Below, piece by piece: positions 8,557 to 37,905 of a stretch of DNA of 56,828 nt. A program made the position numbers and the translations under genes. Below the pieces are notes generated by a model. The model was not told the origin of the DNA, did not search any database, and worked only from the letters and a program-made list of their open reading frames with translations. The stretch spans positions 1 to 56,828 of IMG/VR virus record IMGVR_UViG_3300025687_000053, one strand, 5' to 3'. Within the stretch, counting starts at the first letter, position 1; each line of letters opens with the position of its first letter. Origin of the DNA: a virus. Taxonomy: Duplodnaviria; Caudoviricetes.

Positions 8557-8570
8557 TAAACTGAAAAACT

Positions 8571-9753: not shown

Positions 9754-9844
9754 TGAATACAACGGTGGACGAAAATGGACAACCTGAAACCACCGCAAAA
9801 CGATAATTAAAACGAAAACATAACATTAATTAAAATTTAAAGCG

Positions 9845-10603: not shown

Positions 10604-10604
10604 T

Positions 10605-12267: not shown

Positions 12268-12532
12268 TGGTATTTTAACCAATGAAACTGAAGGATACGA
12301 TTATCAAAACCGCACACCCAACCAAGAGAACATTGATACAGTGAACAGGATATATGACCACGGACATATCGTGGTCTTGTTCACCAGTAGATTTGGAGTT
12401 GACCTACACATCACAAAAAGGTGGCTGAAGGAACATGGTGTACAGTATCATAAGTTGATATTGGATAAACCCCAGTACGATATTTTCGTAGACGATAAAG
12501 CGTATAACTCATTTAAAGAATTAGGATTATGA
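12245..12532 (+). CDS. Minimal HAD-superfamily phosphatase
   Basis: VDIDG motif I, FTSR, KP..D.FVDDKA motif IV. Confidence 0.85.
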   Translation: MRIAVDIDGILTNETEGYDYQNRTPNQENIDTVNRIYDHGHIVVLFTSRFGVDLHITKRWLKEHGVQYHKLILDKPQYDIFVDDKAYNSFKELGL

Positions 12533-14315: not shown

Positions 14316-15322
14316 AAATAAACAAAAACGAACTGAGTAAAGCACTAGACATGGTTAAGCCTGGATTAAGTGCCCAAGAAATGATTGAACAAAGTACTAG
14401 CTTCTGCTTCTTAAATGGACGGGTCATTACGTACAATGACCAAATCAGTATCAGTTACCCATTAGATATTGATTTGGAAGGTGCTATTAACAGTACCGAG
14501 TTGTATGCCTTTGTGAAAAAAGTAAGTAACGAGGAGATAGATGTTAGTATTGACGACAGGGAAATACGTATGAAAGCAGGAAGGGCTAAAGCTGGGTTTG
14601 TACTACAAAGTGAAATAAAACTACCTATCAACGAAGTAGGTGATGTAGAAGAGTGGAAAGACCTCCCAAAAGGATTTCTAAAAGCCCTACGTTTCACGAT
14701 GGGTAGTTGCAGCAATGATATGACTGCCCCTGTTTTGACCTGTGTACATATTAACGGAAAAGTGATGGAGGCTTCAGACCGTTTTAGAATAACCAAGTAC
14801 CAATTAAAGAAGGCTGCCCCGTTAAAACAGTTCCTCCTGCCGGCAGCTGTGTGTGGTACTGTCATTGCTTTTAAACCTGTACAAGTAAGTGAGGGTGAAG
14901 GTTGGGTTCACTTTAAGAACAAAGAGGACGCGGTATTGAGTTGTCGTGTGTTTCAAGATAAGTTTCCAGATGTGTCTAGGTTCTTAGTAGAGGCGGGTGA
15001 GGAGATAAAGTTCCCCTCAGAAATAAAAGGTATCTTGGAAAGGGCTACCATATTCAGCAAAAAAGATAATGCAGCCAATGAGAGTATAGAGCTTGAATTT
15101 AGCAAGAAGAAGGTGGTAATACGCGCCCGCAGTGATTCAGGTTGGTTTGAGGAGAAAGCAAGGGTTGATTATATAGGTAAAGAAGTGACATTCGTTGTTA
15201 CGCCGTATCTATTACAAGATATCCTAGACGAAACGAATGTAGCCACCCTGAATGAAAGTTCTCTTTTGTTTACTGGTGAGGAGTGGCAATACCTATCAAT
15301 GTTAAGAGGGACAGCCAAATAA
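14312..15322 (+). CDS. dnaN: DNA sliding clamp (beta-clamp-like)
   Basis: Size 336 aa; PVLTCVHI, ASDRFRI, FPDV motifs; lies next to the polymerase. Confidence 0.8.
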   Translation: MKINKNELSKALDMVKPGLSAQEMIEQSTSFCFLNGRVITYNDQISISYPLDIDLEGAINSTELYAFVKKVSNEEIDVSIDDREIRMKAGRAKAGFVLQSEIKLPINEVGDVEEWKDLPKGFLKALRFTMGSCSNDMTAPVLTCVHINGKVMEASDRFRITKYQLKKAAPLKQFLLPAAVCGTVIAFKPVQVSEGEGWVHFKNKEDAVLSCRVFQDKFPDVSRFLVEAGEEIKFPSEIKGILERATIFSKKDNAANESIELEFSKKKVVIRARSDSGWFEEKARVDYIGKEVTFVVTPYLLQDILDETNVATLNESSLLFTGEEWQYLSMLRGTAK

Positions 15323-15323
15323 T

Positions 15324-26019: not shown

Positions 26020-26620
26020 CGACATACGTAGTAAAGCAGACCGACTGCAAGGAAGGTACGACCAAATCTCACAGGACATCACCAACCTAAAAGAAGAACG
26101 TGTTGTTAAGGAAGAATCCTTACGATTACATGAGGAGGCTAAAACAGTTGTGCAGCAGGTTGCTATAAAGACCCAAGAGCAACTCCAATACCATATAAGT
26201 GACATCACCAGTTTGGCACTGGAGGCCGTGTTTCCTGAACCCTACAAATTGGAACTAAAGTTTGAAACCCGTCGTAATAAGACTGAGTGTGATATATTGT
26301 TTACCCGTGACGGACTAGAGATAGATCCATTAGAAGCTAGCGGTGGTGGTGTGGTAGATGTGGCTGCCTTTGCCTTACGAATAGCTAGTTGGTCACTATC
26401 CCAAAATAAAACACGCCCGACCATTATACTAGACGAGCCGTTGAAGTGGGTCAGTGAAGGTTTAAAGGAAAGTGCGGCAAGTATGTTAAAACAAGTGAGT
26501 GCGAAACTGGGTATACAGTTCATCGTCGTCACGCATGAACCAAAGTTAACCCAGTATGCAGACAAGATATTTGAGGTGAAGAAAAAAAGGAAAGTCAGCT
26601 CAACACGTGAACTGACTTAA
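26006..26620 (+). CDS. sbcC: SbcC/Rad50-like ATPase, C-terminal half
   Basis: Signature ASGGG, Walker B IILDEP, H-loop VVTHE. Confidence 0.85.
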   Translation: MMKISDIRSKADRLQGRYDQISQDITNLKEERVVKEESLRLHEEAKTVVQQVAIKTQEQLQYHISDITSLALEAVFPEPYKLELKFETRRNKTECDILFTRDGLEIDPLEASGGGVVDVAAFALRIASWSLSQNKTRPTIILDEPLKWVSEGLKESAASMLKQVSAKLGIQFIVVTHEPKLTQYADKIFEVKKKRKVSSTRELT

Positions 26621-26684: not shown

Positions 26685-27158
26685 TTACAAAGTGCTCACA
26701 TCAAAACATGGACACTCTTTACGCCAATCAATTTTATCAATAATCCCATCCCCATTTATATCAGGTGAAAGGTCGCGGTGACCATACAAAGGAACATCGC
26801 CTCCAGGAATCATAGCCTGCAACTTTTTAATCTCTTCTGCCATCGCCTTTTTCTGTTCAGGGGTTCTGGTATCCTTAGCCTTCCCGTGTTTGTCTAAGCC
26901 ACCCACGTAGCAGATGGCTATCGTACCTATATTGAAGTTCTCTCCACCAAACTTTTTGAAGTTAGCATGGGCTCCTTGTCTTTCCAAAGAACGACCATCC
27001 TCAACCGTGCCATCGAGCTTGATTACTTTATGGTAACCAATATCGCTGAAACCCCGTTCTAAATGCCAACGCCTGATTGTAGATGCGTCTATGTCTTTCC
27101 CTTCATGGGTTGCAGAACAATGCACTACAATGCCCACATCAATTTTTCTTTTAATCAT
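26685..27158 (-). CDS. Endolysin, N-acetylmuramoyl-L-alanine amidase (Amidase_2, T7-lysozyme-like)
   Basis: VVHCSAT, IGYH, GAHA, ICYVGG, GHRD, K.CPCFDV; start placed at ATG 27158. Confidence 0.92.
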   Translation of the reverse strand: MIKRKIDVGIVVHCSATHEGKDIDASTIRRWHLERGFSDIGYHKVIKLDGTVEDGRSLERQGAHANFKKFGGENFNIGTIAICYVGGLDKHGKAKDTRTPEQKKAMAEEIKKLQAMIPGGDVPLYGHRDLSPDINGDGIIDKIDWRKECPCFDVSTL

Positions 27159-27361
27159 TTGGATTGGTTGTTCTGTTTCTGTTTCCGTTTTACTTCCCTG
27201 TGACCTACTGCTATCATCCCCCACACGCCCAGCAGCGCCAATAGGTAATTTCCTGTCACCTCGTTGATGGCTCCTGTATTTAAAAGGTAACCAACGGTCA
27301 AGGAAGCTGTCAAGCCAATCTGTGTTTTTCGTCCATTTAACCATGCTAATGCTTTTTTCAT
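27155..27361 (-). CDS. Putative holin
   Basis: Two hydrophobic segments, basic C-terminus, LNGRKT motif; adjacent to the endolysin. Confidence 0.7.
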   Translation of the reverse strand: MKKALAWLNGRKTQIGLTASLTVGYLLNTGAINEVTGNYLLALLGVWGMIAVGHREVKRKQKQNNQSK

Positions 27362-28434
27362 ATGTTTAAGAATTTGTGAGTGTTTTCCCTTGCTATCTTA
27401 TCAAATATCTGTACACCAATTTTCCTACGCAAACCAATTGACCATTCTGCTTCCGTTGTTTCTGATAGGTTCATATACCAATCCGAGCCAAATAAAATGC
27501 GGTCATGCAAGAACTCAAATTTAGGCTCAGTCATTAAGGTAAACAAAACATCAGCCGCAAAATCTTTGTTAGCTGTAAAGCTGATGTCCATGTACACATT
27601 CTTATGGACAGCCATTATATTGATGATTTTATTTAACAGGTTGTTTTCATTACTCGGTTGCTTCAACCATTGTTCCCATTCCTTACTGCCACCAGCATGC
27701 GCCAAGCATATTTTAAGCCCCGGAAACTTAGCAGCTACCTTCGCCCAGTTGTCTGGATTCGTAAATTTATCACAATTGCCTTTCCTACCCAATTTCTTCT
27801 CATACTCATCAAACGGCAATAACAACCAATCCAATTCTGATTTACTGCCTTTGTAGTGTACGGGGTTTCCATAGGTGCAATGTGAGATGATTGGTATGTT
27901 TCTTTCTTGACACTTCTCGTAAATGTATTCGTAACGTGCGTCCTGCGGCCATGTTCCTAGCGGTGGGTACATTTTAACACCCGTCCAACCACGTTTCAAA
28001 ACAAAGTCATCAAAGAAGTTATCGCAATTCTCATCCCTGCAATCCGCCATATAAAACGGTAGTACCTTTTCGGGAAAAATTTTCCGTAAGCTATCTAATG
28101 CCAAAAGACTTTGTAAGTAGGTACGACGACATCTACCCGCACCCATATGATGCATATTCATCATTAAGGCTACGAACTTGGTCGTGCTAGGGTAGTAAGC
28201 ACGAACATCGTTAAACAATTCCATCTCGCTACCAATACGACTTGCTTTAACGAACGTCAACAGTTTATCCAACGCATCTTTGTTAGAAAATGGGTTGAGG
28301 TTATGCAGCACCCCACTAAGTAGCTTGAAACCAATCTTTGTATTTGCTATCTTTGCTAGTACTTTGTTAGGAAACCCAACTGGAATATCTAAGTGTGATA
28401 GCAGGTGCGTGTGTGCGTTTATGATTGGCTTCAT
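27358..28434 (-). CDS. Amidohydrolase-superfamily (Amidohydro_2-like) metalloenzyme
   Basis: NAHTH, GVKMYPPLG, HC, LAHAGG, YMDIS, ILFGSDW. Confidence 0.85.
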   Translation of the reverse strand: MKPIINAHTHLLSHLDIPVGFPNKVLAKIANTKIGFKLLSGVLHNLNPFSNKDALDKLLTFVKASRIGSEMELFNDVRAYYPSTTKFVALMMNMHHMGAGRCRRTYLQSLLALDSLRKIFPEKVLPFYMADCRDENCDNFFDDFVLKRGWTGVKMYPPLGTWPQDARYEYIYEKCQERNIPIISHCTYGNPVHYKGSKSELDWLLLPFDEYEKKLGRKGNCDKFTNPDNWAKVAAKFPGLKICLAHAGGSKEWEQWLKQPSNENNLLNKIINIMAVHKNVYMDISFTANKDFAADVLFTLMTEPKFEFLHDRILFGSDWYMNLSETTEAEWSIGLRRKIGVQIFDKIARENTHKFLNI

Positions 28435-28824
28435 CTATTGATCTTTAATTATTATCTTATCAATCTTTTTCTCTATACGTTCTGCAAACGCCCTAAACTC
28501 TTTATGTATAGCCTGAGCATATAAGTCAGATGCTTTCTTTTCTAGTTTGGTTTCCAGTGCTTTGATATTGTCCGTATGTTCTTTGTCTTTCTCATCAGAA
28601 CGTTGCTGCACCAAATGAATGTCTTTTTCACATTGAGTTTTACAATCAAGGAGTTCTTTTTCATGGGTTTCTTTGACTTCTTTTAGCTCTTTGTCTAAAC
28701 GCTTACCCAAGGCTTCAATTTCTTCTTTCCTTTTGGTGTTGTTGTTGCGGGTGTTCCAGTAAAAGCCCGCTACCGTAATAAGTGCAACAACACTTGGTAA
28801 ACTCAATTGCATTAATTCATCCAT
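28435..28824 (-). CDS. Membrane-anchored coiled-coil protein (lysis-associated?)
   Basis: N-terminal transmembrane helix followed by a coiled coil. Confidence 0.6.
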   Translation of the reverse strand: MDELMQLSLPSVVALITVAGFYWNTRNNNTKRKEEIEALGKRLDKELKEVKETHEKELLDCKTQCEKDIHLVQQRSDEKDKEHTDNIKALETKLEKKASDLYAQAIHKEFRAFAERIEKKIDKIIIKDQ

Positions 28825-30068
28825 TATACTAATCCTTTAAATTTATCAACAATATATTCACGCATTGTTTTGGTTGCCCAACTTGCGTCTAGTCCTAAAT
28901 ACCCTTGAGCTGTTGCACCTACTACTGTATCAAACCAAGTAAATGTTGAATCATTTGTAATATCATCGTAAATGCTTCCTTTACCCGATTTCAAATAAGT
29001 ATTAACAGCAGCATTATGTGATTCAAATACATCAGTCAATTTAACTTCTGCATCATCCACATCAGGGGAAGTCCCGTTCATTAACATAATAGCTGCACAA
29101 TTTGATTGCAATTGGTGGAGGATGTTATCTCTGCGCCTCTGTCCCTCATCATTCTGCTTTTTGCGTGTATCGTATTTCTTTGTGGTGACTTTCTTATTCT
29201 TATGGTCATTCCCTTTTGTGTCTTTCCATGTGCGGGTTTTTTCTCGCTCTGTGATTGTTCTTGCCGCTGGTATAGGTTCACTTTCATCAGCTGTCCAATT
29301 GTGCTCAACCTTTAACACTAAAGTCCCCTTGTCGTTTTCATCCACATAGTTATGATAATATTCTACCAAACCAATTAAACCATCAACGCCAATCTGTTCT
29401 ACTTTATGCAACCTACACCCACTTTTCAAATCAGTAATATAATTAATCACCGTGTGATCCATTGAGCTGTATTGCGCCAGTTCTACAATAACCGCTTCAG
29501 CGGTACAACAAACATCTCCATCTGCTACCTCTGCTGCATAAGTACCTAGTCTTTCTATTTGTGTAGCTCTGCTAATTCTATCAATATGCGTTTTAGCATG
29601 TTCCAATTGTTTAGCTTCATCAGGGTAAATGGTATCACGTTCTGCCTTGGTTATTACGAATAACTCTGATGCCGTTTTTTGAGAAGCTTCACTCAAGTTC
29701 TCTAAGCCCTCAGCAGCAACATAAGTTTCTGCCCAGTCTCTTAATGCTAAATAGGTTAATTCACCAGCGTTACATAAATGGTACATCAAGTGTACATCCG
29801 TAACATCAGTATCACCCTCGGCTTGGAAATCGTGTTCATCATCAACCACCTTCACAATATCTTGTGTATTAAACCGTAACACCCATCTGCCACCTTCCAA
29901 ATCTCCTTTATCATCAGGTTTAATGCCCCCATGCTGTTCAAATGGCATATAGTAATAAATATCACCTAAACAAAACCTTCTCGATTGTGCTGTAAGGTTT
30001 GTAGAGTCTAAAGATTTCAAGGCTGTTATATCAGCCGAATATACGTTTGTTTTAACTGCTATTTTCAT
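28824..30068 (-). CDS. Hypothetical late protein (possible tail-associated)
   Basis: 414-aa ORF. The N-terminus ITALKSL...GGIKPDD...GRWVL resembles tailspike anchor segments. No signal peptide. Confidence 0.6.
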   Translation of the reverse strand: MKIAVKTNVYSADITALKSLDSTNLTAQSRRFCLGDIYYYMPFEQHGGIKPDDKGDLEGGRWVLRFNTQDIVKVVDDEHDFQAEGDTDVTDVHLMYHLCNAGELTYLALRDWAETYVAAEGLENLSEASQKTASELFVITKAERDTIYPDEAKQLEHAKTHIDRISRATQIERLGTYAAEVADGDVCCTAEAVIVELAQYSSMDHTVINYITDLKSGCRLHKVEQIGVDGLIGLVEYYHNYVDENDKGTLVLKVEHNWTADESEPIPAARTITEREKTRTWKDTKGNDHKNKKVTTKKYDTRKKQNDEGQRRRDNILHQLQSNCAAIMLMNGTSPDVDDAEVKLTDVFESHNAAVNTYLKSGKGSIYDDITNDSTFTWFDTVVGATAQGYLGLDASWATKTMREYIVDKFKGLV

Positions 30069-31012
30069 CTTGTATAGTGTTGGAGTGAAATCCTACTCAT
30101 GGAGGTCACTGTTGTTGTTATTCCTTTATTTGCATTGAATGTGATGTTGTACCCGTACCCAGTGCCCAATGGAGGAGGTAAACTAGCTCCATCGGCAAAC
30201 GTTATCAGCAAGGCTTGTTGATTTGTTCCGCTTGTAGTTCCTTCCGGCAGTACGACTGTATTGGTGGTTACGAAACCACTTAACGGGTTCTTAAGAGAAA
30301 CGTCTACCCCTACTACATCATTATTATTCTTGCCTGTATAATCAAATATCACACGCCATATATGGGCCTGTCCAGCTATTAAGTTTTCCCATACTGTTTT
30401 ATGTACACTATCCCAAATTAGTGTGTCATTAGGAAATAATATATTTTGAGGCCATTCATTTGTGGGACTTGAGGATAAGTCAAGGGCTGCCGTCCCATAA
30501 TCAACTATAGAATCCACTCCGGGCGTTAATGTAAAAGAAGGATCAACGCCACCGGAACCGTTTACTTTAACCTTGCCGTCTACCCTATTGGATAGGAATA
30601 TAGTGGTATCAAGTTTGCGTTTAAGGCTATCGCTGATTACTATTTTTATACTATCCTTTGTGTAGTAATTTTCAGCTAAATTGGTTGAGTCGTTTACAAA
30701 CCTACTGTCTAATAAAGCTAAGAATGAACTGTCACTAATAATACGATTATCAAAATATGTAATGACTTCATTCAGCCTATTGGAGTCTGCTATGATCCTG
30801 CTACTATTCAAATCAATCAATGCTTGCCAATAAGAAGCAGGTTGTCCACCAAGACTGTCAGCATTACCCACTGACCCGCCTCCACTACCGCTTACACGGG
30901 AACTATCTGCATACTCTGCCTCTGGTACGGGTGGGTCGAGGTTTATCAATGTTTGTCCAACCGCAAAATGTACGGCCAACAAAACGCCTAATATTAATAG
31001 AAACTTTTTCAT
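30065..31012 (-). CDS. Secreted fibre-like protein rich in D-S/T sequons
   Basis: Signal peptide MKKFLLILGVLLAVHFAVG/Q; fibre motif NADSLGGQPASYW; 12 D-(S/T) dipeptides. Confidence 0.75.
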   Translation of the reverse strand: MKKFLLILGVLLAVHFAVGQTLINLDPPVPEAEYADSSRVSGSGGGSVGNADSLGGQPASYWQALIDLNSSRIIADSNRLNEVITYFDNRIISDSSFLALLDSRFVNDSTNLAENYYTKDSIKIVISDSLKRKLDTTIFLSNRVDGKVKVNGSGGVDPSFTLTPGVDSIVDYGTAALDLSSSPTNEWPQNILFPNDTLIWDSVHKTVWENLIAGQAHIWRVIFDYTGKNNNDVVGVDVSLKNPLSGFVTTNTVVLPEGTTSGTNQQALLITFADGASLPPPLGTGYGYNITFNANKGITTTVTSMSRISLQHYTR

Positions 31013-31013
31013 G

Positions 31014-31421
31014 TTAGTATTGTTTAATATTCAATATTACTTTGATTGTTCCTCCCGTCATACTATTCTTGGAAAATATGATTGGAATGTACTTAAAAGG
31101 AAGCCCATCTTTTGGCAACCCGATTGAAACATTTGCTGTATCAATAGTATACGGCAATTGTGTGCTTGGTATCTCCACATACAACTCCTGCAAATCATTT
31201 GTCTCGTAAACATTGAAAGAACCATCGGGGGTTCCCACTACATCTTTATAAATAACCTGCAAACCCATCAACGCGTCGACCTTGTATTTGCTTTCAATGT
31301 AGAACGTGTCTACAGCAGACATGGTTGATATGTCTATTTCTGTTGAACCCCTTTTTATCTCTGTTTGGCTATACGCTGTCAGGGTAAGCAGCAGTAATAC
31401 GCCCATAAATAGTCTTTTCAT
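31014..31421 (-). CDS. Secreted beta-rich protein
   Basis: Signal peptide MKRLFMGVLLLLTLTAYS/Q; start placed at ATG 31421. Confidence 0.75.
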   Translation of the reverse strand: MKRLFMGVLLLLTLTAYSQTEIKRGSTEIDISTMSAVDTFYIESKYKVDALMGLQVIYKDVVGTPDGSFNVYETNDLQELYVEIPSTQLPYTIDTANVSIGLPKDGLPFKYIPIIFSKNSMTGGTIKVILNIKQY

Positions 31422-31434
31422 GGCTTCTCCTGTG

Positions 31435-31836
31435 TTATTTGTTATACGGTATAATAGTATCCCAGCCGGAGTAAGTTTGCAGGCTGTCGATGAAAGTTTC
31501 ATATACTGGGTAAATCAATGAATCTAAGTACCCTTGCTCAAAACATAACCGCAAATTATTGACAATAGTATTTGTTCCATCTTTATAGGGTAGTACATCC
31601 CCATTTCCATTCCTTGCGGCTGTTGGGTTTATCTTACTCATCATTTCTACTGTTACACAACTATCGTTTCCAAAACCAGTAATTGCTCTAAATTGGAAAA
31701 ATAGGCTATCTGTTGATACGCCTACGTTGGTTGATACTTCGTCAAGTACTACATTCCCTTTCTGAGCAAATGTAGGTTTGTTAATCACGATTATGTTTAA
31801 CGTGATTGCTAAAATTAAAACCATTGTCTTTTTCAT
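31435..31836 (-). CDS. Secreted protein rich in D-S/T sequons
   Basis: Signal peptide MKKTMVLILAITLNIIVINKPTFA/Q; DSL three times, DSC, DTI. Confidence 0.72.
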   Translation of the reverse strand: MKKTMVLILAITLNIIVINKPTFAQKGNVVLDEVSTNVGVSTDSLFFQFRAITGFGNDSCVTVEMMSKINPTAARNGNGDVLPYKDGTNTIVNNLRLCFEQGYLDSLIYPVYETFIDSLQTYSGWDTIIPYNK

Positions 31837-31882
31837 ATTGTCAAATTTTTAGTAAATATACGAATTTTAAATTTTTCTATTA

Positions 31883-33847
31883 TTACAGGGCTTTTGTTCC
31901 AGTTAATATAAACCAATTTGTTCCGTCTGAAATTATTTGATAAAAGTTTGTTCCGCCTCCGTTATCGTCGATGTATGAAGTATACCCTGCGCCTACCGTT
32001 GCGGGTGTTCCATAAATAGCGTCTAGCTCTGCATCTGTTGGCGGGTTGCTTACATCGTCTGTGTATACCTTTTGTTTAATATCCCCGCTATGTTCCATCG
32101 TACCACCGTTTTTTATAGATGTACTGTGCGAACCGTCAGAATTTTCAACATAGAACCCCGTTGTTGCGTCTGTGTTGCCGGAGCCTTTGGCGTTGAGGGT
32201 TGCTGTAAGCGTTCTTGTATTAACACCCAATTGTTTTGTTAGAAAATCACCATGAACAAGGTTGTGTTCATTATTACCGCTGCCTGTATATGCGGAAACG
32301 TACAGTTTATAGTTTTCCCCAGGAACCCCATACTGAGAACCTGCGGCCATACCCAAATAGAGGTTATAATTACCCGTTGTTTGCGTAAATGCTGTAAATC
32401 TACCAAGTGCTGTATTACCAATTCCTGATGTAATATAGCGACCTGCAATTGTTCCCACTAATACGTTACTACTACCTGTCTGAAGTCTTTCCCCTGTAAA
32501 TTGCCCTATACCTATGTTATCCGTACCCGTAGACCCTGTTGCCGTTCCGTACAATGCGCGATAGCCTATGCCTATTCCGTAATCACCCCTATTATTAACT
32601 GCTGCCTCATAGCCTAATGCAACAATATTATTACCAGTTAGCACATTACTTCCTGCATTTGCACCAATAAGTGTATTTGATCCGCCTGTGGTGACGCCAG
32701 ACCCACCAAAAGACCCAACAAAAGTATTTCCACCTCCCGTCGAATTAATGCCACCATTATACCCTATATAAGTATTATCCAATTGAGTTGTTTGATTATT
32801 TCCGGCATACCTTCCAATCAAAACAGATCGAACATCAGATGTAAGATTTTGCCCTGCCGCTATTCCAAATGTCAACGTCCCTTGCCCCTTATTAGTACTT
32901 ATGTAGTTGCTCAACATTCCGCCATCCGAAAACAATTGAAATTTATTTGCTGTTCCGGCACCATTTTTCAATGCAAAGCCTGTTGTTGAATCGGTGTTTA
33001 CGGTTAAGGTAGATTTCATGTTTACATTTACGCCATCATAAGTGAAGTTATCACTACCCTCTATCTGTCCCGTGCCGTCTAATACAGCCACCTGATTAAC
33101 GCTACCTGTTTGGCTTATGAAGTTGTCGTTCATGTACTCTCTATTCGCCTGTAAACTATCCTCCGTTTCTGTCCTTACACTATCAACCGACTGGCTTACG
33201 TATGTTTCTGAAACGCCGCCACTAAAATTAGCCAACAAGCTGTCAACATACCAACGCGAAGCATCCCAAGTGCCTGTATCTTGTATATCTTGCTTCAAAC
33301 CCAAAAGTGCTTGCATAAATAATTTTGTGTAATACTCATTGCTGTCACTCAACCATACAGGGTCTGTTTCCGTATAGCTGGTCAAGAACCCCTGCAAGTT
33401 TACCCATGCTTGGGTGGCCATTATACTATTCGTGTCTTGCCAACTCATGAACCTCGCCGTGTCTAATTTAACAATCATCCAATACGTTCCCAACCAATCC
33501 GTTGTATCACTACTGTAAACATCTCCACCGCTTGTCGCAGTTGTGTCAATGTAAATAGTATCATTCAATAATTTCCACCCGCTTTCCATCGTACACCCAT
33601 CGCAGTAATTGACAAACGTGCTATCGCGATTAACAATCTTCCAATCACTATTGGATAATTTCTGTGAGGAGGCTGCTTTATTGAGCATTTGGTATATTGT
33701 ACCTGTCTGCTCATCTTGTACCAATTTACCTGCCTTCAGCGTTCTGCCAAAAGCAGTTGTACTATCCTCTACTTGAAATACTGTCCCGTTCTGAGCCATT
33801 GCGCCCAGTGCAACGACCATCAATAAAAATGTAAGTAATTTTTTCAT
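31883..33847 (-). CDS. Secreted tail-fibre/adhesin-like protein with trimeric beta-roll (N..G..A/G) repeats
   Basis: Signal peptide MKKLLTFLLMVVALGAMA/Q; ETDP and YVD fibre motifs; about ten ~14-residue repeats such as NTFVGSFGG, NTLIGANAG, NIVALGYEAA. Confidence 0.8.
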   Translation of the reverse strand: MKKLLTFLLMVVALGAMAQNGTVFQVEDSTTAFGRTLKAGKLVQDEQTGTIYQMLNKAASSQKLSNSDWKIVNRDSTFVNYCDGCTMESGWKLLNDTIYIDTTATSGGDVYSSDTTDWLGTYWMIVKLDTARFMSWQDTNSIMATQAWVNLQGFLTSYTETDPVWLSDSNEYYTKLFMQALLGLKQDIQDTGTWDASRWYVDSLLANFSGGVSETYVSQSVDSVRTETEDSLQANREYMNDNFISQTGSVNQVAVLDGTGQIEGSDNFTYDGVNVNMKSTLTVNTDSTTGFALKNGAGTANKFQLFSDGGMLSNYISTNKGQGTLTFGIAAGQNLTSDVRSVLIGRYAGNNQTTQLDNTYIGYNGGINSTGGGNTFVGSFGGSGVTTGGSNTLIGANAGSNVLTGNNIVALGYEAAVNNRGDYGIGIGYRALYGTATGSTGTDNIGIGQFTGERLQTGSSNVLVGTIAGRYITSGIGNTALGRFTAFTQTTGNYNLYLGMAAGSQYGVPGENYKLYVSAYTGSGNNEHNLVHGDFLTKQLGVNTRTLTATLNAKGSGNTDATTGFYVENSDGSHSTSIKNGGTMEHSGDIKQKVYTDDVSNPPTDAELDAIYGTPATVGAGYTSYIDDNGGGTNFYQIISDGTNWFILTGTKAL

Positions 33848-33851
33848 AATC

Positions 33852-34442
33852 TTATTGTATAAATTGTAATTGTTCACCATCTTCTCTTGGCGTCACCTCT
33901 ACCGTATCATCGGTGACGCCTGTTATAATTGATTTAGGCTGTAACACCCCTTCCACTAAACACCGCACTCTTCCCAGTATTGGGAGGAAATCTGTGATAA
34001 CAAAATCCGTTTGTCCTGCCGTAGCTTCTAAATCTTCTTGCCCATGCAACCCGTTTCCCGCTATGGGTATGAGCGTTGCTAAAAATTGGTAGATGAGCAG
34101 TTTAGCCAAACTCGTATCACTTATAAACTCACCCGTTTCAATCAATCTCGTATCCCAACCAACTGGATCAGGAGCCACGCTGTTAGCCGTGTATACTGTG
34201 TACGTATCGTTGGTCACATAAATGTCCCCAACGCTTAACGGGTTTGCTGGTAGGCTGGTCGTGTTTCCAATTCCCAAATTCGCCACAATTGCTTTAGCTG
34301 GCAATACGCCTGCGGCAAGAGGGAAGAAGTTGGCATCTTCATCTAAATATCCGGGCACCCCCTGCGCATTGAACGTGTATGCCCTGCACCCCGTTGCGGG
34401 GTTTCTGTGTGTTCCTTGTTTTCCTAATTCTAATTGTGCCAT
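33852..34442 (-). CDS. Tail/fibre-associated protein
   Basis: C-terminal ATAGQTDF...VEGVLQ beta module; position in the tail cluster. Confidence 0.6.
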   Translation of the reverse strand: MAQLELGKQGTHRNPATGCRAYTFNAQGVPGYLDEDANFFPLAAGVLPAKAIVANLGIGNTTSLPANPLSVGDIYVTNDTYTVYTANSVAPDPVGWDTRLIETGEFISDTSLAKLLIYQFLATLIPIAGNGLHGQEDLEATAGQTDFVITDFLPILGRVRCLVEGVLQPKSIITGVTDDTVEVTPREDGEQLQFIQ

Positions 34443-34446: not shown

Positions 34447-34779
34447 CTAAGGTATTGTGATTGTTCCGTAGCATTCTATACTACCATTTACTTGCAATCT
34501 GTATGTATTGTACGCCCAATTAACTGGGATAGTAAGTACGTCATCTTCTTCTATCAATTCCTTCACCCCTCCTATTACTTTACCATTAAGTTTAACACCA
34601 ACTCCATTCTCAGCGGGGTCTCCGTGAAACTTTCGCATAACGCCATTGCGGGCTTGATAAAACCATGTGGCATCATCTGGGTAATAAAAAGCCTGATCGA
34701 TCCAACCTGCATCGGTTGGTTCAAGGTCTTCTATCGCCTCGTAAGTGTTGGCATATATGAATCTTAAAGCTGCTCCCAT
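34447..34779 (-). CDS. Tail-associated hypothetical protein
   Basis: ORF track and position. Confidence 0.6.
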   Translation of the reverse strand: MGAALRFIYANTYEAIEDLEPTDAGWIDQAFYYPDDATWFYQARNGVMRKFHGDPAENGVGVKLNGKVIGGVKELIEEDDVLTIPVNWAYNTYRLQVNGSIECYGTITIP

Positions 34780-36266
34780 TCTACTGTGTCTCCCTCAATG
34801 TTTTGGATTTGATTATTAGTTACTGAATTATTCGTAATATTCTGAATCTCTTGTTGCACTGAGAAAATACTCAGTCTAAACAGGTTTGCTAGATTAATTG
34901 GTAGTACATCACCGAACTTAATTGTGTACTGGTACGGGTCTGTAATTTTCTGTACAATTTCATTAATCTCAAAAAACTGATCAAGATTAAACTTAGTTGA
35001 TACCACTCGTATCACATCACCCACGTATAGATGAAGTCCACGTGAACGCAAGTAATCTTTATCTACTTTGGCTTCATACTGTTCTTGTGGGGTACTTACA
35101 TCATCAAGGTGCTCTTCTGTCCTTGTTTGAAGTCTTGTCATGGCTGTCGCAATATACGATTCGGGAAACGCAATATCAAATATCTTGTACGTGTCTCCCG
35201 TCTCCATAATAATCGACGTATTTGGATATTGACCCGATGGGTCTGTAACAGGTGTGAGTGTGATTTGGAAACTGTCATGGTCGTACGCTATTGAAAAGGT
35301 TTGTCCCACCAATCTACCATCCAAGAAAGTCACCTTAGCAGTTATCCCCTCTAACAAGTAATTATTAATATCAAAGTCTATGGTCTGGTCGGTGAAGGTA
35401 TGCGTATCAATCACATCAGTGACCGTACCAGTGAACTCAGGGAAGATATCATCAAACTCTACCACCGTTTCACGAACCCCATATAAATCGATATTTTTAG
35501 TTAATTTACTTTCCCCGCCGACCCCGACAAATGCCAAACGGTTTTCGGTTAACGTAGGACCGTCATAGGTGGCGCCTCCTGTATTTGTTCTGGGTGGGAG
35601 GTTCTTTGTACTACCATAACCATAAACAACCGTAAAAAGAGACGTATTATTGAGTCTCATCCTTGTTAAACTTTCGAACCCGTTCTTCATACCAACTTGG
35701 AAGACGTGGGTTGTTTGGTTTTCTCTCGCCTTAAAGTTTAAAACCCCGCCCTCTAGATACCAATTGAAACCAATCTTTTGCGCAAGTACTTGAATGGTCT
35801 CGTAGACGTTCCAATTATTGAAGTCAATAGTATACGAAGCAGTCTCCTCATAATCACCTACCGTATAATTGCCCCCAGCATTATTCAACACATTGACAAT
35901 GAACTGAAGAAATGTTTGTGCTGTGCCAGTAAGTGGGAAACGGTAATCCAAATATGAACCGCCCCCCACTTTAGGAGTCTCTAGGAATACCTTTACTTTT
36001 TGAAACTCATGTATCCCAGTTTCGAAATAACATTCATAACTATATTCTCTAGGCTTGGATAAGACTCTTGGTTGTTCGTTTAAATAGTATTGAAGCCCAT
36101 TCTTTTCGTAAATGATAAAGTCACCAATCTTTAACTCTATGAAAGTATCACTACGAAAACTCAAACGTATTCTATCCTGCAACTCTTTTTTACAAGTGTA
36201 TTCGGAGTTGTTGTCGGGTCTTACCTGAGTAACGAGTATATTATTTCTAAAGATTGAAATCAACAT
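34764..36266 (-). CDS. Tail tip / baseplate hub (Tal-like) protein
   Basis: IGDFI.Y, TVVYGYGSTKNLP, YGVRE...FDDIFP, VGDVIRV; follows Dit. Confidence 0.75.
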   Translation of the reverse strand: MLISIFRNNILVTQVRPDNNSEYTCKKELQDRIRLSFRSDTFIELKIGDFIIYEKNGLQYYLNEQPRVLSKPREYSYECYFETGIHEFQKVKVFLETPKVGGGSYLDYRFPLTGTAQTFLQFIVNVLNNAGGNYTVGDYEETASYTIDFNNWNVYETIQVLAQKIGFNWYLEGGVLNFKARENQTTHVFQVGMKNGFESLTRMRLNNTSLFTVVYGYGSTKNLPPRTNTGGATYDGPTLTENRLAFVGVGGESKLTKNIDLYGVRETVVEFDDIFPEFTGTVTDVIDTHTFTDQTIDFDINNYLLEGITAKVTFLDGRLVGQTFSIAYDHDSFQITLTPVTDPSGQYPNTSIIMETGDTYKIFDIAFPESYIATAMTRLQTRTEEHLDDVSTPQEQYEAKVDKDYLRSRGLHLYVGDVIRVVSTKFNLDQFFEINEIVQKITDPYQYTIKFGDVLPINLANLFRLSIFSVQQEIQNITNNSVTNNQIQNIEGDTVEWEQL

Positions 36267-36961
36267 TATGCTGTCTCCCCTACAAACCAACATGAACTCA
36301 CTACAATGTTCCCAGTTCCGCTCAATGTTGTGTATGAAAATAAATCAATTCGTAAATCGTTTGCCGTTGCCATCCTACAATTACCATTCAACGGCACAGT
36401 CGGGGCCTGTACATCAAACGCCCCTGCTACTGCTGCCTTGGTTGCTGGCTTAGCCCATGCAGGAACGTTTGCAAATGTAATGGCGGCTACCTGTGCCTGT
36501 CCCCATATACTGAAGTCAAACTTAAAACGCCCCGTCATGAAACATACTTGGCCTTGGCGTATGAAACGTATATCACACTCGAGTACGCCCTGTGAGGGTG
36601 TTCCTGTTACATGGTAAACCTCTTGTCCTTTTTCAAGTGCTTTGCGCAAGTTATTAGCCACCACAGCATTGTCATTATCTAACGACCCTAAATTAGCCTC
36701 AGTGGCCACTCGTATGACCCCAGTTACATCCTCACTGGCTACCGTAGCTTTCAATGCCTTTGGTGTAACAACGTTTGTTCGATTGGCTAGTGTATCACCG
36801 CTGTCGTCCATAGCCCCGTCTAATAATAGTTCGGATAGTTTGACGTGTTTAGCTTCCCCAGCAGACAAGCTGCTGTCATCTACCGGAATAACAGCACTAG
36901 CAATCAAAGCTGCTAATTCTGTTATCGTCATTTTGGTTAAATCGTATGTTCTCTTTCCCAT
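36266..36961 (-). CDS. Tail fibre / receptor-binding-like protein
   Basis: ITEL N-terminus, VVTPKAL, GVIRVAT; C-terminal RQGQV..., PAWAKP beta-sandwich. Confidence 0.6.
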   Translation of the reverse strand: MGKRTYDLTKMTITELAALIASAVIPVDDSSLSAGEAKHVKLSELLLDGAMDDSGDTLANRTNVVTPKALKATVASEDVTGVIRVATEANLGSLDNDNAVVANNLRKALEKGQEVYHVTGTPSQGVLECDIRFIRQGQVCFMTGRFKFDFSIWGQAQVAAITFANVPAWAKPATKAAVAGAFDVQAPTVPLNGNCRMATANDLRIDLFSYTTLSGTGNIVVSSCWFVGETA

Positions 36962-36966: not shown

Positions 36967-37905
36967 TTAATTATTAGTATTTAATGATTCCGTATTATCA
37001 ATCAATAACGACTCCGAATCGCTAATGCTTAACGTTCCAGGGGTTACCGTGATATAATTTGTCTTTGTTTCAATTGCTTGTCCTTGTTCTGTATTAAACA
37101 CAACAAGAGTGACCGTGTATGTTCCTGCTTCATTGTACGTGTGTAAGGGGTTCTGTTGATCACTGGTACTACCATCTCCAAAGTCCCAACTCCAGACCGC
37201 AACGCCCCCTGTACTATTATCTGTGAACTGAACATCTAAAAATGCTTCACCAGCTAGTACATCCGCTTCAAAGTCTGCTACCAGTACATTGACTGAGGAA
37301 TCTGTTTTATCAACGTCGATAATAATCTCTACCAAGCCGTCGGCTGTGTAATCATCTTTCGTATAGTTGCCTGAGTTACTGACATCCCCCCGATCACCGT
37401 CTCCCCAGAAGATGTTAGAACTTCTTCCCTTATCATACGTCACTGTGACTGTGTTTCCTGTGATTTGCGTGTAGTATTTAATGGCGTTAGGGTTAACGTC
37501 CCTGAATCCCAGTTTAAACACGTATAGAGAGTTCTGTAGGCGTATGTGCACCGTTGGGACGATAGTGGTAGAACGTTCAGCCAATACTGCAAATCTTTTG
37601 GTCGGGTCTGGGTCTACATCATCCTCTCTTATTGACAAGACAAACAAACCCTTATCAAACATATAACTAATCAGGTCATCTACTTTTTGACGAGCCGATA
37701 ATTGGTCACCTGCCTTTACCAAACAAAAGAAAACGAACTCATTGCTATCAAAGCGTTGGTTGGTTAACAACTTCTCAACACCAGACTTGTCTTGCCATAC
37801 CCTCGTGTCGGGACGCTCATTGGCAAATGATAGTAGACCTGTGTGGTCTAGTACCTTCACGCCGTAGGTGGCTTCTAAGTCTTTATTATCAATGTAAAAT
37901 TTCAT
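36967..37905 (-). CDS. Distal tail (Dit-like) protein with a PKD domain
   Basis: IDNKDL..TYGV; PKD signature WSWDFGDGSTS..QNP.HTY...GTYTVTL. Confidence 0.75.
   Translation of the reverse strand: MKFYIDNKDLEATYGVKVLDHTGLLSFANERPDTRVWQDKSGVEKLLTNQRFDSNEFVFFCLVKAGDQLSARQKVDDLISYMFDKGLFVLSIREDDVDPDPTKRFAVLAERSTTIVPTVHIRLQNSLYVFKLGFRDVNPNAIKYYTQITGNTVTVTYDKGRSSNIFWGDGDRGDVSNSGNYTKDDYTADGLVEIIIDVDKTDSSVNVLVADFEADVLAGEAFLDVQFTDNSTGGVAVWSWDFGDGSTSDQQNPLHTYNEAGTYTVTLVVFNTEQGQAIETKTNYITVTPGTLSISDSESLLIDNTESLNTNN

What the first reader, a model, noticed from the sequence alone, without database searches (positions are those of the whole stretch)
30065..33847. Exported fibre module loaded with O-glycosylation sequons: phage fibres possibly routed through the host periplasm for glycosylation
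Seen: four consecutive late genes, sitting where tail fibres or receptor-binding proteins belong, each begin with a classical Sec signal peptide followed by Gln (MKKLLTFLLMVVALGAMA/Q, MKKTMVLILAITLNIIVINKPTFA/Q, MKRLFMGVLLLLTLTAYS/Q, MKKFLLILGVLLAVHFAVG/Q). By hand count they contain 32 D-(S/T) dipeptides (13, 5, 2, 12). Of these, 23 match D-(S/T)-(A/I/L/V/M/T). In the 315-aa protein, 12 of 23 Asp are followed by S or T. Two of the four carry phage-fibre motifs (NADSLGGQPASYW, ETDP, YVDS, beta-roll repeats). Established: D-(S/T)-(A/I/L/V/M/T) is the sequon of the Bacteroidota general O-glycosylation system, which modifies exported proteins. Gln at +1, cyclised to pyroglutamate, is typical of Bacteroidota SPase I substrates. 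Virion proteins are normally made in the cytoplasm without signal peptides. Inference: the phage exports fibre or appendage subunits so that the host glycosylates them. They would then join virions at or after lysis, for shielding, stability or adhesion, or else decorate the infected cell surface. This is the best candidate for an undescribed system in the window.
Basis: partly seen in the sequence, partly recalled or inferred. Interest (0 to 1): 0.92.

Follow-up and report, generated by a model that had tools for sequence, protein, structure and literature searches.

The report
Exported, sequon-rich phage fibre genes
A phage of Bacteroidota bacteria carries four neighbouring tail-fibre-like genes that all begin with secretion signals and are packed with the host's sugar-attachment motif, suggesting fibres that mature outside the cytoplasm, which has not been described for tailed phages.

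Summary
Four consecutive minus-strand genes (33847..30065) start with tripartite Sec/SPase-I-type leaders followed by Gln. They hold 32 D-(S/T) dipeptides and 23 D-(S/T)-(AILVMT) sequons, against 6.3 expected (z 6.9). No other ORF in this 56.8-kb virus record is enriched. Of the 20 possible X-(S/T)-(AILVMT) motifs, only X = Asp stands out.

The record is an apparently virulent siphovirus whose tail-tip protein has relatives only in Bacteroidota phages. The genes lie inside the late operon, between tail-tip genes and the lysis cassette. Protein A shares fibre repeats with tail fibres. Protein D ends in a confidently modelled TNF/C1q-like knob resembling the Sf6 tail-needle knob.

Similar runs of leader-plus-Gln, sequon-rich fibre-like genes occur in the structural modules of five other uncultured phage contigs, one of them a close relative with identical gene order. 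Four cultured Bacteroidota relatives lack them.

Export and host O-glycosylation are well-supported inferences. Whether the proteins join virions at lysis (my best guess, about 0.4) or act free of the virion (about 0.35) is untested. One point against a simple link: other leader-bearing proteins with the D-type knob are not sequon-enriched. No paper found describes this.

The parts
31883..33847 (-). Gene A, 654 aa. 18-aa leader MKKLLTFLLMVVALGAMA then Gln; a conserved N-domain; a DS-rich helical stretch; Gly-rich fibre repeats; a C-terminal domain. 10 sequons. An alternative start lies at 33880.
   Evidence: ORF. Sequons 10 vs 3.4 expected, p 0.0012. PHROG tail spike and virion structural protein matches at residues 316-514. 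134 homologues.
33794..33847 (-). Signal peptide of A (residues 1-18); predicted cleavage AMA|Q.
   Evidence: Sequence; heuristic. The leader and Gln are kept in homologues P0006 and P0029.
33623..33793 (-). N-domain of mature A (residues 19-75). It follows the leader directly.
   Evidence: Aligned with P0006, with two L007 proteins and with the L024 380-aa protein. In every case it follows a leader plus Gln.
32282..32902 (-). Gly-rich fibre repeat region of A (about residues 316-522).
   Evidence: PHROG matches. tblastn and protein hits cover this region.
31435..31836 (-). Gene B, 133 aa. 24-aa leader ending TFA|Q; 4 sequons; an orphan.
   Evidence: 4 vs 0.54, p 0.0002. Only itself was found. 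Weak full-length resemblance to the 131-aa leader protein that follows the fibre in L019 (E 0.015).
31014..31421 (-). Gene C, 135 aa. 18-aa leader ending AYS|Q; 1 sequon (not enriched). An AGGAG motif lies 6 nt before the ATG. An alternative start lies at 31502.
   Evidence: Atlas: 29 of 30 nearest clusters carry no Pfam family; the three shown score 0.92 and are mostly viral, 128-142 aa. Structural look-alikes are mainly small beta-sandwich-type proteins (GOLD, GldH-like).
30065..31012 (-). Gene D, 315 aa. 19-aa leader ending AVG|Q; short N-terminus; the fibre motif NADSLGGQPASYW; a DS-rich helical stalk; a C-terminal knob. 8 sequons.
   Evidence: 8 vs 1.8, p 0.0002. Model.
30068..30580 (-). 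TNF/C1q-like knob domain of D (residues 145-315).
   Evidence: pLDDT 90-99. Foldseek best hits are the Sf6 and HS1 tail-needle knobs, E 1.5e-6. 223 representative homologues, all matching at or near their C-terminus in the 150 listed. Fibre proteins of cultured Acinetobacter phages also match.
33852..34442 (-). p196, no leader, immediately upstream of A (4-nt gap). Candidate adaptor for A.
   Evidence: 48% identical homologue in the same position in L023. Its C-terminal domain recurs as a 98-aa gene directly upstream of the leader-bearing N-domain protein in L024 (E 5.8e-4).
34764..36293 (-). Tail-tip protein (Tal-like, Prophage_tail domain), short form. Context and host marker.
   Evidence: Pfam PF06605, E 6.7e-11. 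tblastn matched 62 phage records; all named hosts are Bacteroidota except one record labelled Shigella.
28824..30068 (-). p414, no leader. Its start overlaps the stop of D by 4 nt.
   Evidence: Its N-terminal 107 aa resemble the gene that follows the leaderless D homologue P0002 in L020 (E 5.6e-5).
26685..28824 (-). Lysis-proximal genes closing the operon: a 129-aa protein with a hydrophobic N-terminal segment and a coiled-coil match, a 358-aa amidohydrolase, a 68-aa protein that may be a holin (my reading of its sequence), and an amidase endolysin.
   Evidence: Pfam Amidohydro_2, Amidase_2 and a DUF7365 coiled-coil match. Overlapping or abutting starts and stops.
26592..26618 (-). Terminator-like hairpin after the endolysin; it has the longest stem of the two on this strand. 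The other minus-strand site, a 6-pair stem at 37850..37834, lies inside the Dit gene.
   Evidence: 5 terminator-like sites found against 8.4 expected. None lies on the minus strand between 26618 and 37834.

Best explanation
A to D form a late-expressed module of fibre and lectin-like appendage proteins. They are made as Sec precursors and cut by host signal peptidase I to expose Gln, which the Bacteroidota glutaminyl cyclase would convert to pyroglutamate. In the periplasm the host's general O-glycosylation system would glycosylate them at their many D-(S/T)-(AILVMT) sites.

They accumulate in the periplasm while capsids and tails assemble in the cytoplasm. When the holin and endolysin break the envelope, the compartments merge. 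The glycosylated fibres then dock on the tail tip, A through its conserved N-domain and probably onto the p196-type protein encoded just upstream. Released virions would thus carry host-glycosylated, protease-resistant fibres ending in lectin-like knobs.

Shown: gene anatomy, leader features, specific sequon enrichment, fibre homology and knob fold, operon position, and recurrence in other phage contigs.

Inferred: export, cleavage, glycosylation, and above all attachment to virions.

Confidence in export plus glycosylation is about 0.8. Confidence in the whole chain, including virion attachment, is 0.4.
For: 1. Leaders. All four have a positive N-region, a hydrophobic core, small residues at -3 and -1, and Gln at +1. 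The Q-rule is described as a Bacteroidetes feature of SPase I substrates (PMC5837995 and PMC10653852; only the listings and the starts of the abstracts were seen).

2. Host phylum. The Tal protein matched 62 phage records: Bacteroides 23, Riemerella 14, Porphyromonas 12, Elizabethkingia 1, unnamed 11, and 1 labelled Shigella.

3. Sequon enrichment. 23 vs 6.3 expected, z 6.9, specific to Asp, with Glu depleted. The residue after S/T is most often L, T or I, and S outnumbers T 15 to 8. This matches the published preferences, and the review states that the motif is glycosylated nearly fully in non-cytoplasmic proteins and even when engineered in (PMC12871550, passages read). 65 other window ORFs gave 48 vs 46.1.

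4. Fibre nature. A matches PHROG tail spike and virion structural families. D's knob is modelled at pLDDT above 90 and resembles the Sf6 and HS1 tail-needle knobs and TNF-like lectins. Knob homologues sit in annotated fibre proteins of cultured Acinetobacter phages.

5. Position. The genes lie inside a tightly packed late operon between tail-tip and lysis genes, with gaps of 4, 46, 13 and 1 nt and a 4-nt overlap. There is no internal terminator-like site and no GC anomaly. No window protein without a leader resembles A or D.

6. Conservation. L023 is a relative (Dit 55%, Tal 54%, p110 57%, p196 48% identity). It keeps the order TMP-Dit-p231-Tal-p110-p196 and then the A homologue P0006, with leader and Gln.

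7. Recurrence. L007 has 3 consecutive leader-plus-Gln genes. L008 has 3 of 4 consecutive genes. L019 has a fibre plus a small protein just before lysis genes. L024 has 3 consecutive genes after a tape-measure-like gene. Six L007/L008 proteins pooled gave 46 vs 19.4 sequons, z 6.5.

8. A possible adaptor. A p196-type domain gene sits directly upstream of the A-type N-domain gene in two lineages (window plus L023; L024).

9. Leaderless fibre relatives are at expectation. Chryseobacterium phage MA9V-3 6 vs 5.7; TaPaz 2 vs 1.9. Long Tal proteins of RAP44, TCUEAP3 and Pg phage005b: 2 vs 3.1, 1 vs 4.3, 4 vs 3.2. 83 leaderless A homologues: 284 vs 291.
Against: - No tailed phage is known (from my own recall, and none turned up in searches) to route virion proteins through the periplasm. 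Fibres would have to find tails only during or after lysis.
- SignalP was not run. My leader test is crude and flagged 7 other ORFs loosely.
- Among 151 proteins with the D-type knob, the 30 with leaders are not sequon-enriched (46 vs 38.4). The 121 without leaders even show some excess within the knob (126 vs 87.3). Part of the signal could therefore be structural.
- Several A sequons (DSL, DSV) lie in a motif conserved in P0006 and P0029. The L007 count is inflated by a repeated unit.
- C is not enriched. B has no relatives.
- G001 (L007) shares the A-type N-domain with the window but no other detectable protein, and has no detectable p196-like gene. This fits a host-encoded partner as well as a virion partner.
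- Four cultured Bacteroidota relatives examined have leaderless tail proteins.
- p414 has no leader, yet its relative sits next to a leaderless D homologue in L020.
Confidence: 0.4

Rival explanations
1. The proteins are exported and glycosylated but never become part of the virion. They are pre-loaded in the periplasm and act on the envelope or, after lysis, as free glycosylated lectin-like fibres. Possible roles are masking receptors on envelope debris or neighbouring cells, blocking superinfection, or binding host or environmental glycans.
For: - Every exported protein of tailed phages that I can recall is non-virion (spanins, T4 RI, T5 Llp, lambda Lom and Bor; all recalled, not tested here).
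- Q-rule leader genes in P. gingivalis phages were read by their authors as potential modifiers of the host outer membrane (PMC10367356, passages read).
- The A-type N-domain is shared with G001, which shares no other detectable protein with the window. This fits a host partner.
- Bacteroidota cells encode leader-bearing 'tail fiber domain-containing' proteins with T9SS sorting domains (Ekhidna and Bacteroidia entries). Fibre folds therefore do serve as exported cell proteins.
- D's knob resembles TNF-like lectins.
Against: - The phage looks virulent. It encodes a DNA polymerase, a sliding clamp (processivity factor), a helicase, a Toprim-domain protein and RecA, and no integrase turned up among the 30 ORFs scanned. 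Lysogenic-conversion roles are therefore unlikely.
- The genes lie inside the structural operon, with no terminator-like site of their own on that strand and no GC deviation.
- No leaderless paralogue exists in the window that could be the virion's matching receptor-binding protein.
- No lipobox is visible in the four leaders and no T9SS C-terminal domain was detected, so nothing found would carry them to the cell surface.
- Long fibres have little obvious use inside a narrow periplasm.
- The position, leader and gene order are kept in a relative at about 50% identity.
Confidence: 0.35
2. The N-terminal hydrophobic segments are not working export signals, or work only inefficiently. The proteins are then ordinary cytoplasmic tail fibres, and the D-S/T-hydrophobic excess reflects fibre structure (stalk periodicity, conserved motifs) rather than glycosylation.
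For: - Leaderless members of the D-knob family show a sequon excess in the knob (126 vs 87.3).
- DSL and DSV motifs are conserved within helical motifs of A, P0006 and P0029.
- Repeats inflate the count in L007.
- SignalP was not run.
Against: - Four of four leaders have Gln at +1, and Gln makes up 4.0% of the window's ORF products. The same holds in L007, L008, L019, L023 and L024.
- The enrichment is specific to Asp, with Glu depleted, as the glycosylation system requires.
- Leaderless fibre homologues are at expectation: 284 vs 291; 6 vs 5.7 and 2 vs 1.9.
- No other structural protein of this phage is enriched.
Confidence: 0.1
3. The proteins are displayed on the infected cell surface or secreted through the type IX secretion system or another outer-membrane route, as a cell-surface module carried by the phage.
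For: Relatives of A's repeat region in bacterial genomes carry the Por_Secre_tail sorting domain PF18962 (P0021, P0040, P0064, P0106).
Against: - No T9SS C-terminal domain was found in A to D, in Pfam at E up to 0.01 or in NCBIfam at E up to 0.1.
- The leaders are SPase I type, with no lipobox Cys visible.
- Divergent sorting domains could have been missed.
Confidence: 0.07

Closest known systems
Q-rule signal-peptide genes of unknown function in Porphyromonas gingivalis phages (Matrishin et al. 2023, PMC10367356; passages read)
   Same: Phage genes of a Bacteroidota host whose predicted SPase I cleavage exposes Gln. The authors inferred use of the host's general secretion system. The window's Tal protein has relatives in P. 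gingivalis phages.
   Different: Those are five genes of unknown function in temperate phages, read as host-membrane modifiers. The word stem 'glycosyl' does not occur in that paper, and the passages read did not link these genes to fibres. In the one Pg phage I examined (phage005b), the tail proteins next to Tal carry no leader. That paper's supplements could not be seen.
Substrates of the Bacteroidota general O-glycosylation system (review PMC12871550; passages read)
   Same: Non-cytoplasmic proteins bearing D-(S/T)-(A/L/V/I/M/T). The motif is enriched over chance. S is preferred over T, and L, I, V, T are preferred at the third place. All of this is mirrored in A, B and D.
   Different: The known substrates are host proteins. 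The word 'phage' does not occur in the review. The enrichment here (3.6-fold) is well above that of other leader-bearing relatives (1.2-fold to 1.4-fold).
Phage tail fibres and tail-needle knobs (Sf6 and HS1 gp26 knob; cyanophage A-1(L) short tail fibre; Acinetobacter phage TaPaz fibre protein)
   Same: D has a stalk plus a C-terminal TNF-like jelly-roll knob and shows sequence homology to annotated fibre proteins. A has fibre repeats. Both lie at the end of the tail module.
   Different: The cultured relatives examined here (TaPaz, MA9V-3) have no leader and sequons at expectation. As far as I recall, such fibres are made and assembled in the cytoplasm.
T4 long tail fibre gene set gp34-gp35-gp36-gp37 (recalled, not tested)
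   Same: Four consecutive genes in the order large, small, small, then a distal protein with a binding tip. This resembles A-B-C-D, and all four here share one compartment.
   Different: No sequence relationship was tested or seen. The T4 proteins are cytoplasmic and need cytoplasmic chaperones.
Exported accessory proteins of tailed phages: lambda Lom and Bor, T5 Llp, spanins, T4 RI (recalled; a T4 RI paper appeared in the listing)
   Same: Late or tail-adjacent phage genes with Sec leaders that act in the envelope.
   Different: Those are small lipoproteins, outer-membrane proteins or lysis regulators, not fibre-like trimeric proteins. None is known to be selected for glycosylation sites.
Bacteroidota cellular 'tail fiber domain-containing' proteins with T9SS sorting domains (NCBI names)
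   Same: A leader, often followed by Gln, and the same Gly-rich repeats as A.
   Different: They carry Peptidase_S74 and/or Por_Secre_tail domains, which A lacks. Two of them (P0021, P0064) have 0 sequons. By their NCBI names and contig lengths they appear to be bacterial.
Glycosylated mycobacteriophage virions (recalled, not read here)
   Same: Precedent that phage virion proteins can carry glycans.
   Different: As I recall, that glycosylation is done in the cytoplasm by phage-encoded glycosyltransferases. No glycosyltransferase was seen among the 30 window ORFs scanned, and the route proposed here is the host's periplasmic system.

Membership tests
Sec/SPase I substrates obeying the Bacteroidetes Q-rule | Tripartite leader: positive N-region, hydrophobic core, small residues at -3 and -1 | tested here: met
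   Met by sequence inspection and my own heuristic for all four. SignalP was not available, so this is a weak test.
Sec/SPase I substrates obeying the Bacteroidetes Q-rule | Gln at +1 of the cleavage site | tested here: met
   4 of 4 (AMA|Q, TFA|Q, AYS|Q, AVG|Q). Also met in homologues P0006, P0029 and P0004 and in the leader-bearing genes of L007, L008, L019, L023 and L024.
Sec/SPase I substrates obeying the Bacteroidetes Q-rule | Actual cleavage and pyroglutamate formation | not testable with these tools
   Needs N-terminal proteomics.
Substrates of the Bacteroidota general O-glycosylation system | D-(S/T)-(A/I/L/V/M/T) motif in a soluble region | tested here: met
   23 motifs: 10, 4, 1 and 8 in A, B, C and D. 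Enriched with z 6.9, specific to Asp.
Substrates of the Bacteroidota general O-glycosylation system | Non-cytoplasmic location | tested here: inconclusive
   Inferred only from the leaders.
Substrates of the Bacteroidota general O-glycosylation system | Host belongs to Bacteroidota and has the system | tested here: inconclusive
   The phylum is inferred from Tal relatives and the Q-rule. The host itself is unknown.
Substrates of the Bacteroidota general O-glycosylation system | Glycan attached | not testable with these tools
   Needs glycoproteomics.
Phage tail fibre / receptor-binding appendage | Homology or fold shared with known fibre modules | tested here: met
   A: PHROG tail spike family, E 5e-8, and virion structural protein family, E 4e-9. 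D: knob resembles the Sf6 tail-needle knob, E 1.5e-6, and fibre proteins of Acinetobacter phages. B and C have no such evidence.
Phage tail fibre / receptor-binding appendage | Encoded in the tail morphogenesis module | tested here: met
   The genes lie between Tal, p110 and p196 and the lysis genes. The same order is found in L023.
Phage tail fibre / receptor-binding appendage | Present in the virion | not testable with these tools
   Needs purified virions.
Phage tail fibre / receptor-binding appendage | Made in the cytoplasm without a signal peptide (the usual state) | tested here: not met
   All four have leaders.
TNF/C1q-like trimeric knob (Sf6-type tail-needle knob) | Jelly-roll beta-sandwich at the C-terminus | tested here: met
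   pLDDT 90-99 over residues 145-312. Foldseek probability 1.0, TM by target 0.54-0.61. Trimer formation was not tested.
Moron or lysogenic-conversion cassette | Own promoter and terminator, deviating composition, temperate phage | tested here: not met
   No terminator-like site on that strand within the module. GC is 0.38-0.42, like its surroundings. No integrase among the 30 ORFs scanned. The promoter scan is not informative for Bacteroidota.
Type IX secretion cargo | C-terminal sorting domain (Por_Secre_tail or type B) | tested here: not met
   No match in Pfam at E up to 0.01 or NCBIfam at E up to 0.1. Divergent domains could escape detection.
Lipoprotein (SPase II) exclusion proteins or spanins | Lipobox with Cys at +1 | tested here: not met
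   No lipobox in A to D. Lipoproteins were seen in RAP44 and Pg phage005b instead.

The most novel reading that the evidence does not exclude
A subset of tailed phages of Bacteroidota build their tail fibres in two compartments. Fibre subunits are secreted by Sec, capped with pyroglutamate and coated with the host's own O-glycan in the periplasm. They are mounted on cytoplasmically assembled tails only when the holin and endolysin merge the compartments. This would be a previously unknown assembly pathway for tailed phages, and the first case of a phage using a host general protein-glycosylation system to dress its virion.
Probability: 0.4. Interest if true: 0.92.

Novelty: new variant of a known kind. 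Interest (0 to 1): 0.78.

Why it matters
Tailed-phage virions are thought to assemble entirely in the cytoplasm. Fibres that must pass through the periplasm would add a new step to phage morphogenesis. It would also tie infectivity to host Sec, signal peptidase, glutaminyl cyclase and O-glycosylation genes, which would become new host factors and resistance routes.

Host-type glycans on fibres could change their stability, their protease resistance and how phages are recognised. That is relevant to Bacteroidota phages of water and gut and to engineering them.

Even if the proteins never reach virions, a recurrent class of secreted, heavily glycosylated fibre and lectin proteins made late by lytic phages has not been described.

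The claim is directly testable: glycoproteomics and N-terminal mapping on virions, or heterologous expression in Flavobacterium or Bacteroides with and without O-glycosylation.

Tried and rejected
**Searches for close relatives**
- DNA search of 10 kb against cultured phages found no match.
- The search for related loci with D and with A alone in IMG/VR found nothing.
- An alignment of A, P0006 and P0029 found six loci.
- The N-domain alone against cultured phages gave no match. In IMG/VR it found only the L007 contig again.

**Genome collection.** A 5-row D alignment and the single protein P0231 found no confirmed locus. I therefore could not name organisms that encode leader-bearing knob proteins. 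The listing of cluster members gave no taxon names.

**First structure model.** It was replaced by a 79-row alignment.

**Tests that came out negative**
- I tested whether sequons track leaders across the D-knob family. They do not: leader-bearing 46 vs 38.4, leaderless 271 vs 232.9.
- I considered that a fibre N-terminal motif (VP..D..LG...W) marks a virion anchor kept behind the leader. I rejected this because the motif occurs at many internal positions in leaderless fibres.
- I looked for homology between p110, p196 or A and the C-terminal extensions of the long Tal proteins of RAP44, TCUEAP3 and Pg phage005b. None was found.
- The p196 profile against the genes upstream of the leader clusters in L007 and L019 gave no significant match.
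- PHROG annotation of ten late proteins of the complete record G002 named only the major head protein and one weak fibre motif. I could not show that the leader-bearing proteins are its only fibres.

**Promoter scans.** The sigma-70-type scan and the TAnnTTTG motif were both at chance level.

**Complex prediction.** A residues 19-130 against p196, p110 and Tal 330-509: the verdict was 'no answer'. It counts neither for nor against binding.

**Sequencing runs.** No RNA holder was listed.

**Literature.** Searches found no paper that links phage fibres with Sec export or the Bacteroidota sequon. Supplements were closed; those of PMC10367356 may list the positions and sizes of its Q-rule genes.

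Full report
**What the window is.** It is a whole IMG/VR virus record of 56,828 bases, estimated 88% complete.
- The plus-strand half encodes replication and DNA-modification functions: an SNF2 helicase, a Toprim-domain protein, a DnaB-like helicase, a radical SAM protein, a GTP cyclohydrolase, a queuine tRNA-ribosyltransferase-like protein, a clamp, a DNA polymerase, RecA and an SMC-like ATPase.
- The minus-strand half is one long late block: large terminase, portal, head morphogenesis protein, major head protein, major tail protein, a 1620-aa ORF at 37910..42772 that I take to be the tape measure from its size, position and 32% identity to the large protein preceding the Dit homologue in L023, a Dit-like protein with a PKD domain, p231, a Tal-like tip protein, p110, p196, then A, B, C and D, then p414, a 129-aa protein with a hydrophobic N-terminal segment and a coiled-coil match, an amidohydrolase, a 68-aa protein that may be a holin, and an amidase.
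- None of the 30 ORFs I scanned is an integrase or repressor, so the phage looks virulent. The other ORFs were not scanned.
- The Tal protein matched 62 records of cultured or assembled phages: Bacteroides 23, Riemerella 14, Porphyromonas 12, Elizabethkingia 1, unnamed 11, and one labelled Shigella. The host is therefore most likely a member of Bacteroidota.

- The four ORFs, their N-termini and the hand counts are exact.
- Each leader has two or three Lys/Arg, a hydrophobic core of about 11 to 15 residues, small residues at -3 and -1, and Gln at +1. My crude rule set flagged 11 of 69 ORFs, but only these four have that full pattern. SignalP was not available, so this remains a weak test.
- Sequons are enriched in A, B and D but not in C.
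- Pooled over the mature proteins there are 23 sequons against 6.3 expected (z 6.9). Among the 20 tripeptide classes X-(S/T)-(AILVMT), Asp is the only outlier and Glu is depleted (0 vs 2.7). Ser outnumbers Thr 15 to 8, and L, T and I lead at the third place.
[quoted passage not shown] It also states that non-cytoplasmic proteins are modified in the periplasm, nearly completely, and even at engineered or foreign motifs (PMC12871550, passages read).
- The rest of the phage is at expectation: none of 63 other ORFs reached p < 0.08, and 65 ORFs pooled gave 48 vs 46.1.

**What the proteins are.**
- A has an N-domain directly after the leader, a DS-rich helical part, and Gly-rich repeats. The repeats match PHROG tail spike and virion structural families and 134 database proteins.
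- D has a short N-terminus, the common fibre motif NADSLGGQPASYW, a stalk modelled at low confidence as helices, and a C-terminal domain modelled at pLDDT 90-99. That domain is a TNF/C1q-like jelly roll. Its best solved matches are the Sf6 and HS1 tail-needle knobs (E 1.5e-6), a cyanophage short-tail-fibre domain, and TNF-like lectins.
- The knob occurs in 223 representative proteins; in all 150 listed it lies at or near the C-terminus, and those proteins range from 134 to 1259 residues. It also occurs in annotated fibre proteins of cultured Acinetobacter phages and in a 1459-aa protein of Chryseobacterium phage MA9V-3.
- C resembles small, mostly viral proteins of about 130 to 145 aa with no family name.
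- B is an orphan, apart from a weak full-length resemblance to the 131-aa leader protein that follows the fibre in L019 (E 0.015).

**Do relatives keep leaders and sequons?** The answer is mixed, and both sides matter.

In favour:
- P0006 is the best full-length relative of A. It has a leader plus Gln and 9 sequons against 3.7 expected. Its gene sits in L023, a relative of this phage (Dit 55%, Tal 54%, p110 57%, p196 48% identity), at the same place in the same gene order.
- L019 is another siphovirus contig. It ends its tail module with the leader-bearing fibre P0029 (6 vs 3.4) and a small leader protein, followed by lysis genes.
- L007 has three consecutive leader-plus-Gln genes after the head and connector genes.
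- L008 lies in a complete 48-kb record. It has three such genes among four consecutive genes ahead of small membrane proteins and the terminase.
- L024 has three in a row after a tape-measure-like gene.
- Six L007/L008 proteins pooled gave 46 sequons vs 19.4 (z 6.5), although a repeated unit in the 1003-aa protein inflates this count.
- Of 119 A homologues, the 36 with leader-like N-termini gave 126 vs 92.2 (ratio 1.37). The 83 without leaders gave 284 vs 291.4 (ratio 0.97).
- Leaderless fibres of cultured phages are at expectation.

Against:
- In the D-knob family, the 30 of 151 proteins with leaders (27 with Gln) are not enriched (46 vs 38.4).
- Leaderless members of that family show an excess inside the knob itself (126 vs 87.3).
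- Export alone therefore does not produce the pattern, and some Asp-Ser/Thr-hydrophobic positions are structural.
- Four cultured Bacteroidota relatives have long, leaderless tail proteins: RAP44, TCUEAP3, Pg phage005b and B. thetaiotaomicron phage jmh72_hp.

**How it most likely works.**
- Export, cleavage before Gln and O-glycosylation follow from established rules if the leaders work. I put that at about 0.8.
- The open question is where the proteins go. Without a lipobox or a T9SS sorting domain, they should stay in the periplasm until lysis.
- For a role on the virion: the fibre and knob homology; the position inside a tightly coupled tail-to-lysis operon with no terminator-like site of its own on that strand and no GC deviation; the lack of any leaderless paralogue of A or D in the phage; conservation of place and leader in L023; and a p196-type domain gene immediately upstream of the A-type N-domain gene in two lineages.
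- Against it: the compartment barrier; the absence of any precedent that I know of or could find; and the fact that G001 shares the N-domain with this phage but no other detectable protein.
- I therefore commit to fibres that mature in the periplasm and mount on tails at lysis, at 0.4. Exported but virion-independent lectin-like fibres follow at 0.35.

**Comparison with what is known.**
- Leaders obeying the Q-rule on phage genes were reported for P. gingivalis phages and read as host-surface modifiers (PMC10367356).
- A rumen phage study found signal peptides only in two Bacteroides phages (2 and 1 genes) and did not interpret them further (PMC5723332).
- A Bacteroides phage study used the lack of signal peptides on phage DGR target proteins as a mark of phage origin (PMC6199706).
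- None of the papers I read links phage proteins to the O-glycosylation motif. The review of the system does not mention phages.
- The finding is thus a new variant of known kinds (phage fibres; exported phage proteins). If the virion route is real, it becomes a new assembly pathway.

**Limits.**
- Everything rests on sequence and predicted structure.
- The leader test is my own heuristic.
- The host is inferred, not known.
- The related contigs are uncultured.
- The supplements of the cited papers were closed.

Noticed in passing
window 10542..14315 (+): A cluster of a radical SAM protein, a GTP cyclohydrolase fused to a phosphoribosyltransferase-like region, and a queuine tRNA-ribosyltransferase-like protein, next to the replication genes. 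This looks like a 7-deazaguanine DNA-modification pathway.
   Followed up: no
window 27358..28434 (-): A 358-aa Amidohydro_2-family protein sits inside the lysis cassette, between a 129-aa protein with a hydrophobic N-terminal segment and a coiled-coil match and the 68-aa protein that may be a holin. This is an unusual neighbour for lysis genes.
   Followed up: no
window 26685..27344 (-): The amidase ORF as listed overlaps the 68-aa ORF by 190 nt. The Amidase_2 match starts at residue 71, so the real start is probably the internal Met (MIKRK) near 27158, which would overlap the upstream stop by 4 nt.
   Followed up: partly
window 36967..37905 (-): The Dit-like distal tail protein carries a C-terminal PKD domain (E 8e-18), a possible carbohydrate-binding decoration on the tail tip that needs no export.
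   Followed up: no
window 48263..49348 (-): The head-morphogenesis protein matches a PHROG family labelled Bxa ADP-ribosyl transferase (E 1e-63) over residues 186-359. Several head-morphogenesis families match overlapping parts of the protein, so the label probably reflects a shared head-protein domain rather than a toxin.
   Followed up: no
L007 12940..13848 and G001 738..17510: The gene after the leader cluster in L007 encodes a leucine-rich-repeat protein of the kind I recall from BspA-type surface proteins, with a PKD-like start and no leader. The same record holds a 5590-aa ORF.
   Followed up: no
L002 13480..14058 and L004 15023..15553: The lipoproteins near the endolysins of Riemerella phage RAP44 and P. 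gingivalis phage005b (the latter annotated as a spanin) each carry 2 sequons against 0.3-0.4 expected. Periplasmic lysis proteins of Bacteroidota phages may be glycosylated too.
   Followed up: no
L008 3833..6433: The 866-aa leader-bearing fibre contains a GDS motif typical of SGNH/GDSL esterases (VLGDSFGAS). Its last 60-80 residues are 44-56% identical to the C-termini of cyanophage virion structural proteins.
   Followed up: partly
window 30065..33847: Runs labelled freshwater metagenome hold this stretch: X1 with a share of 1.00 (possibly the source sample) and X2 with 0.35 in another study. A second assembly contig of 57,146 bases encodes identical A and B proteins.
   Followed up: no
window 33600..33640 (A residues about 82-87): A contains a Cys-Asp-Gly-Cys motif and B has two Cys. 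Disulfide formation in the periplasm could be another reason for export. C and D have no Cys.
   Followed up: no
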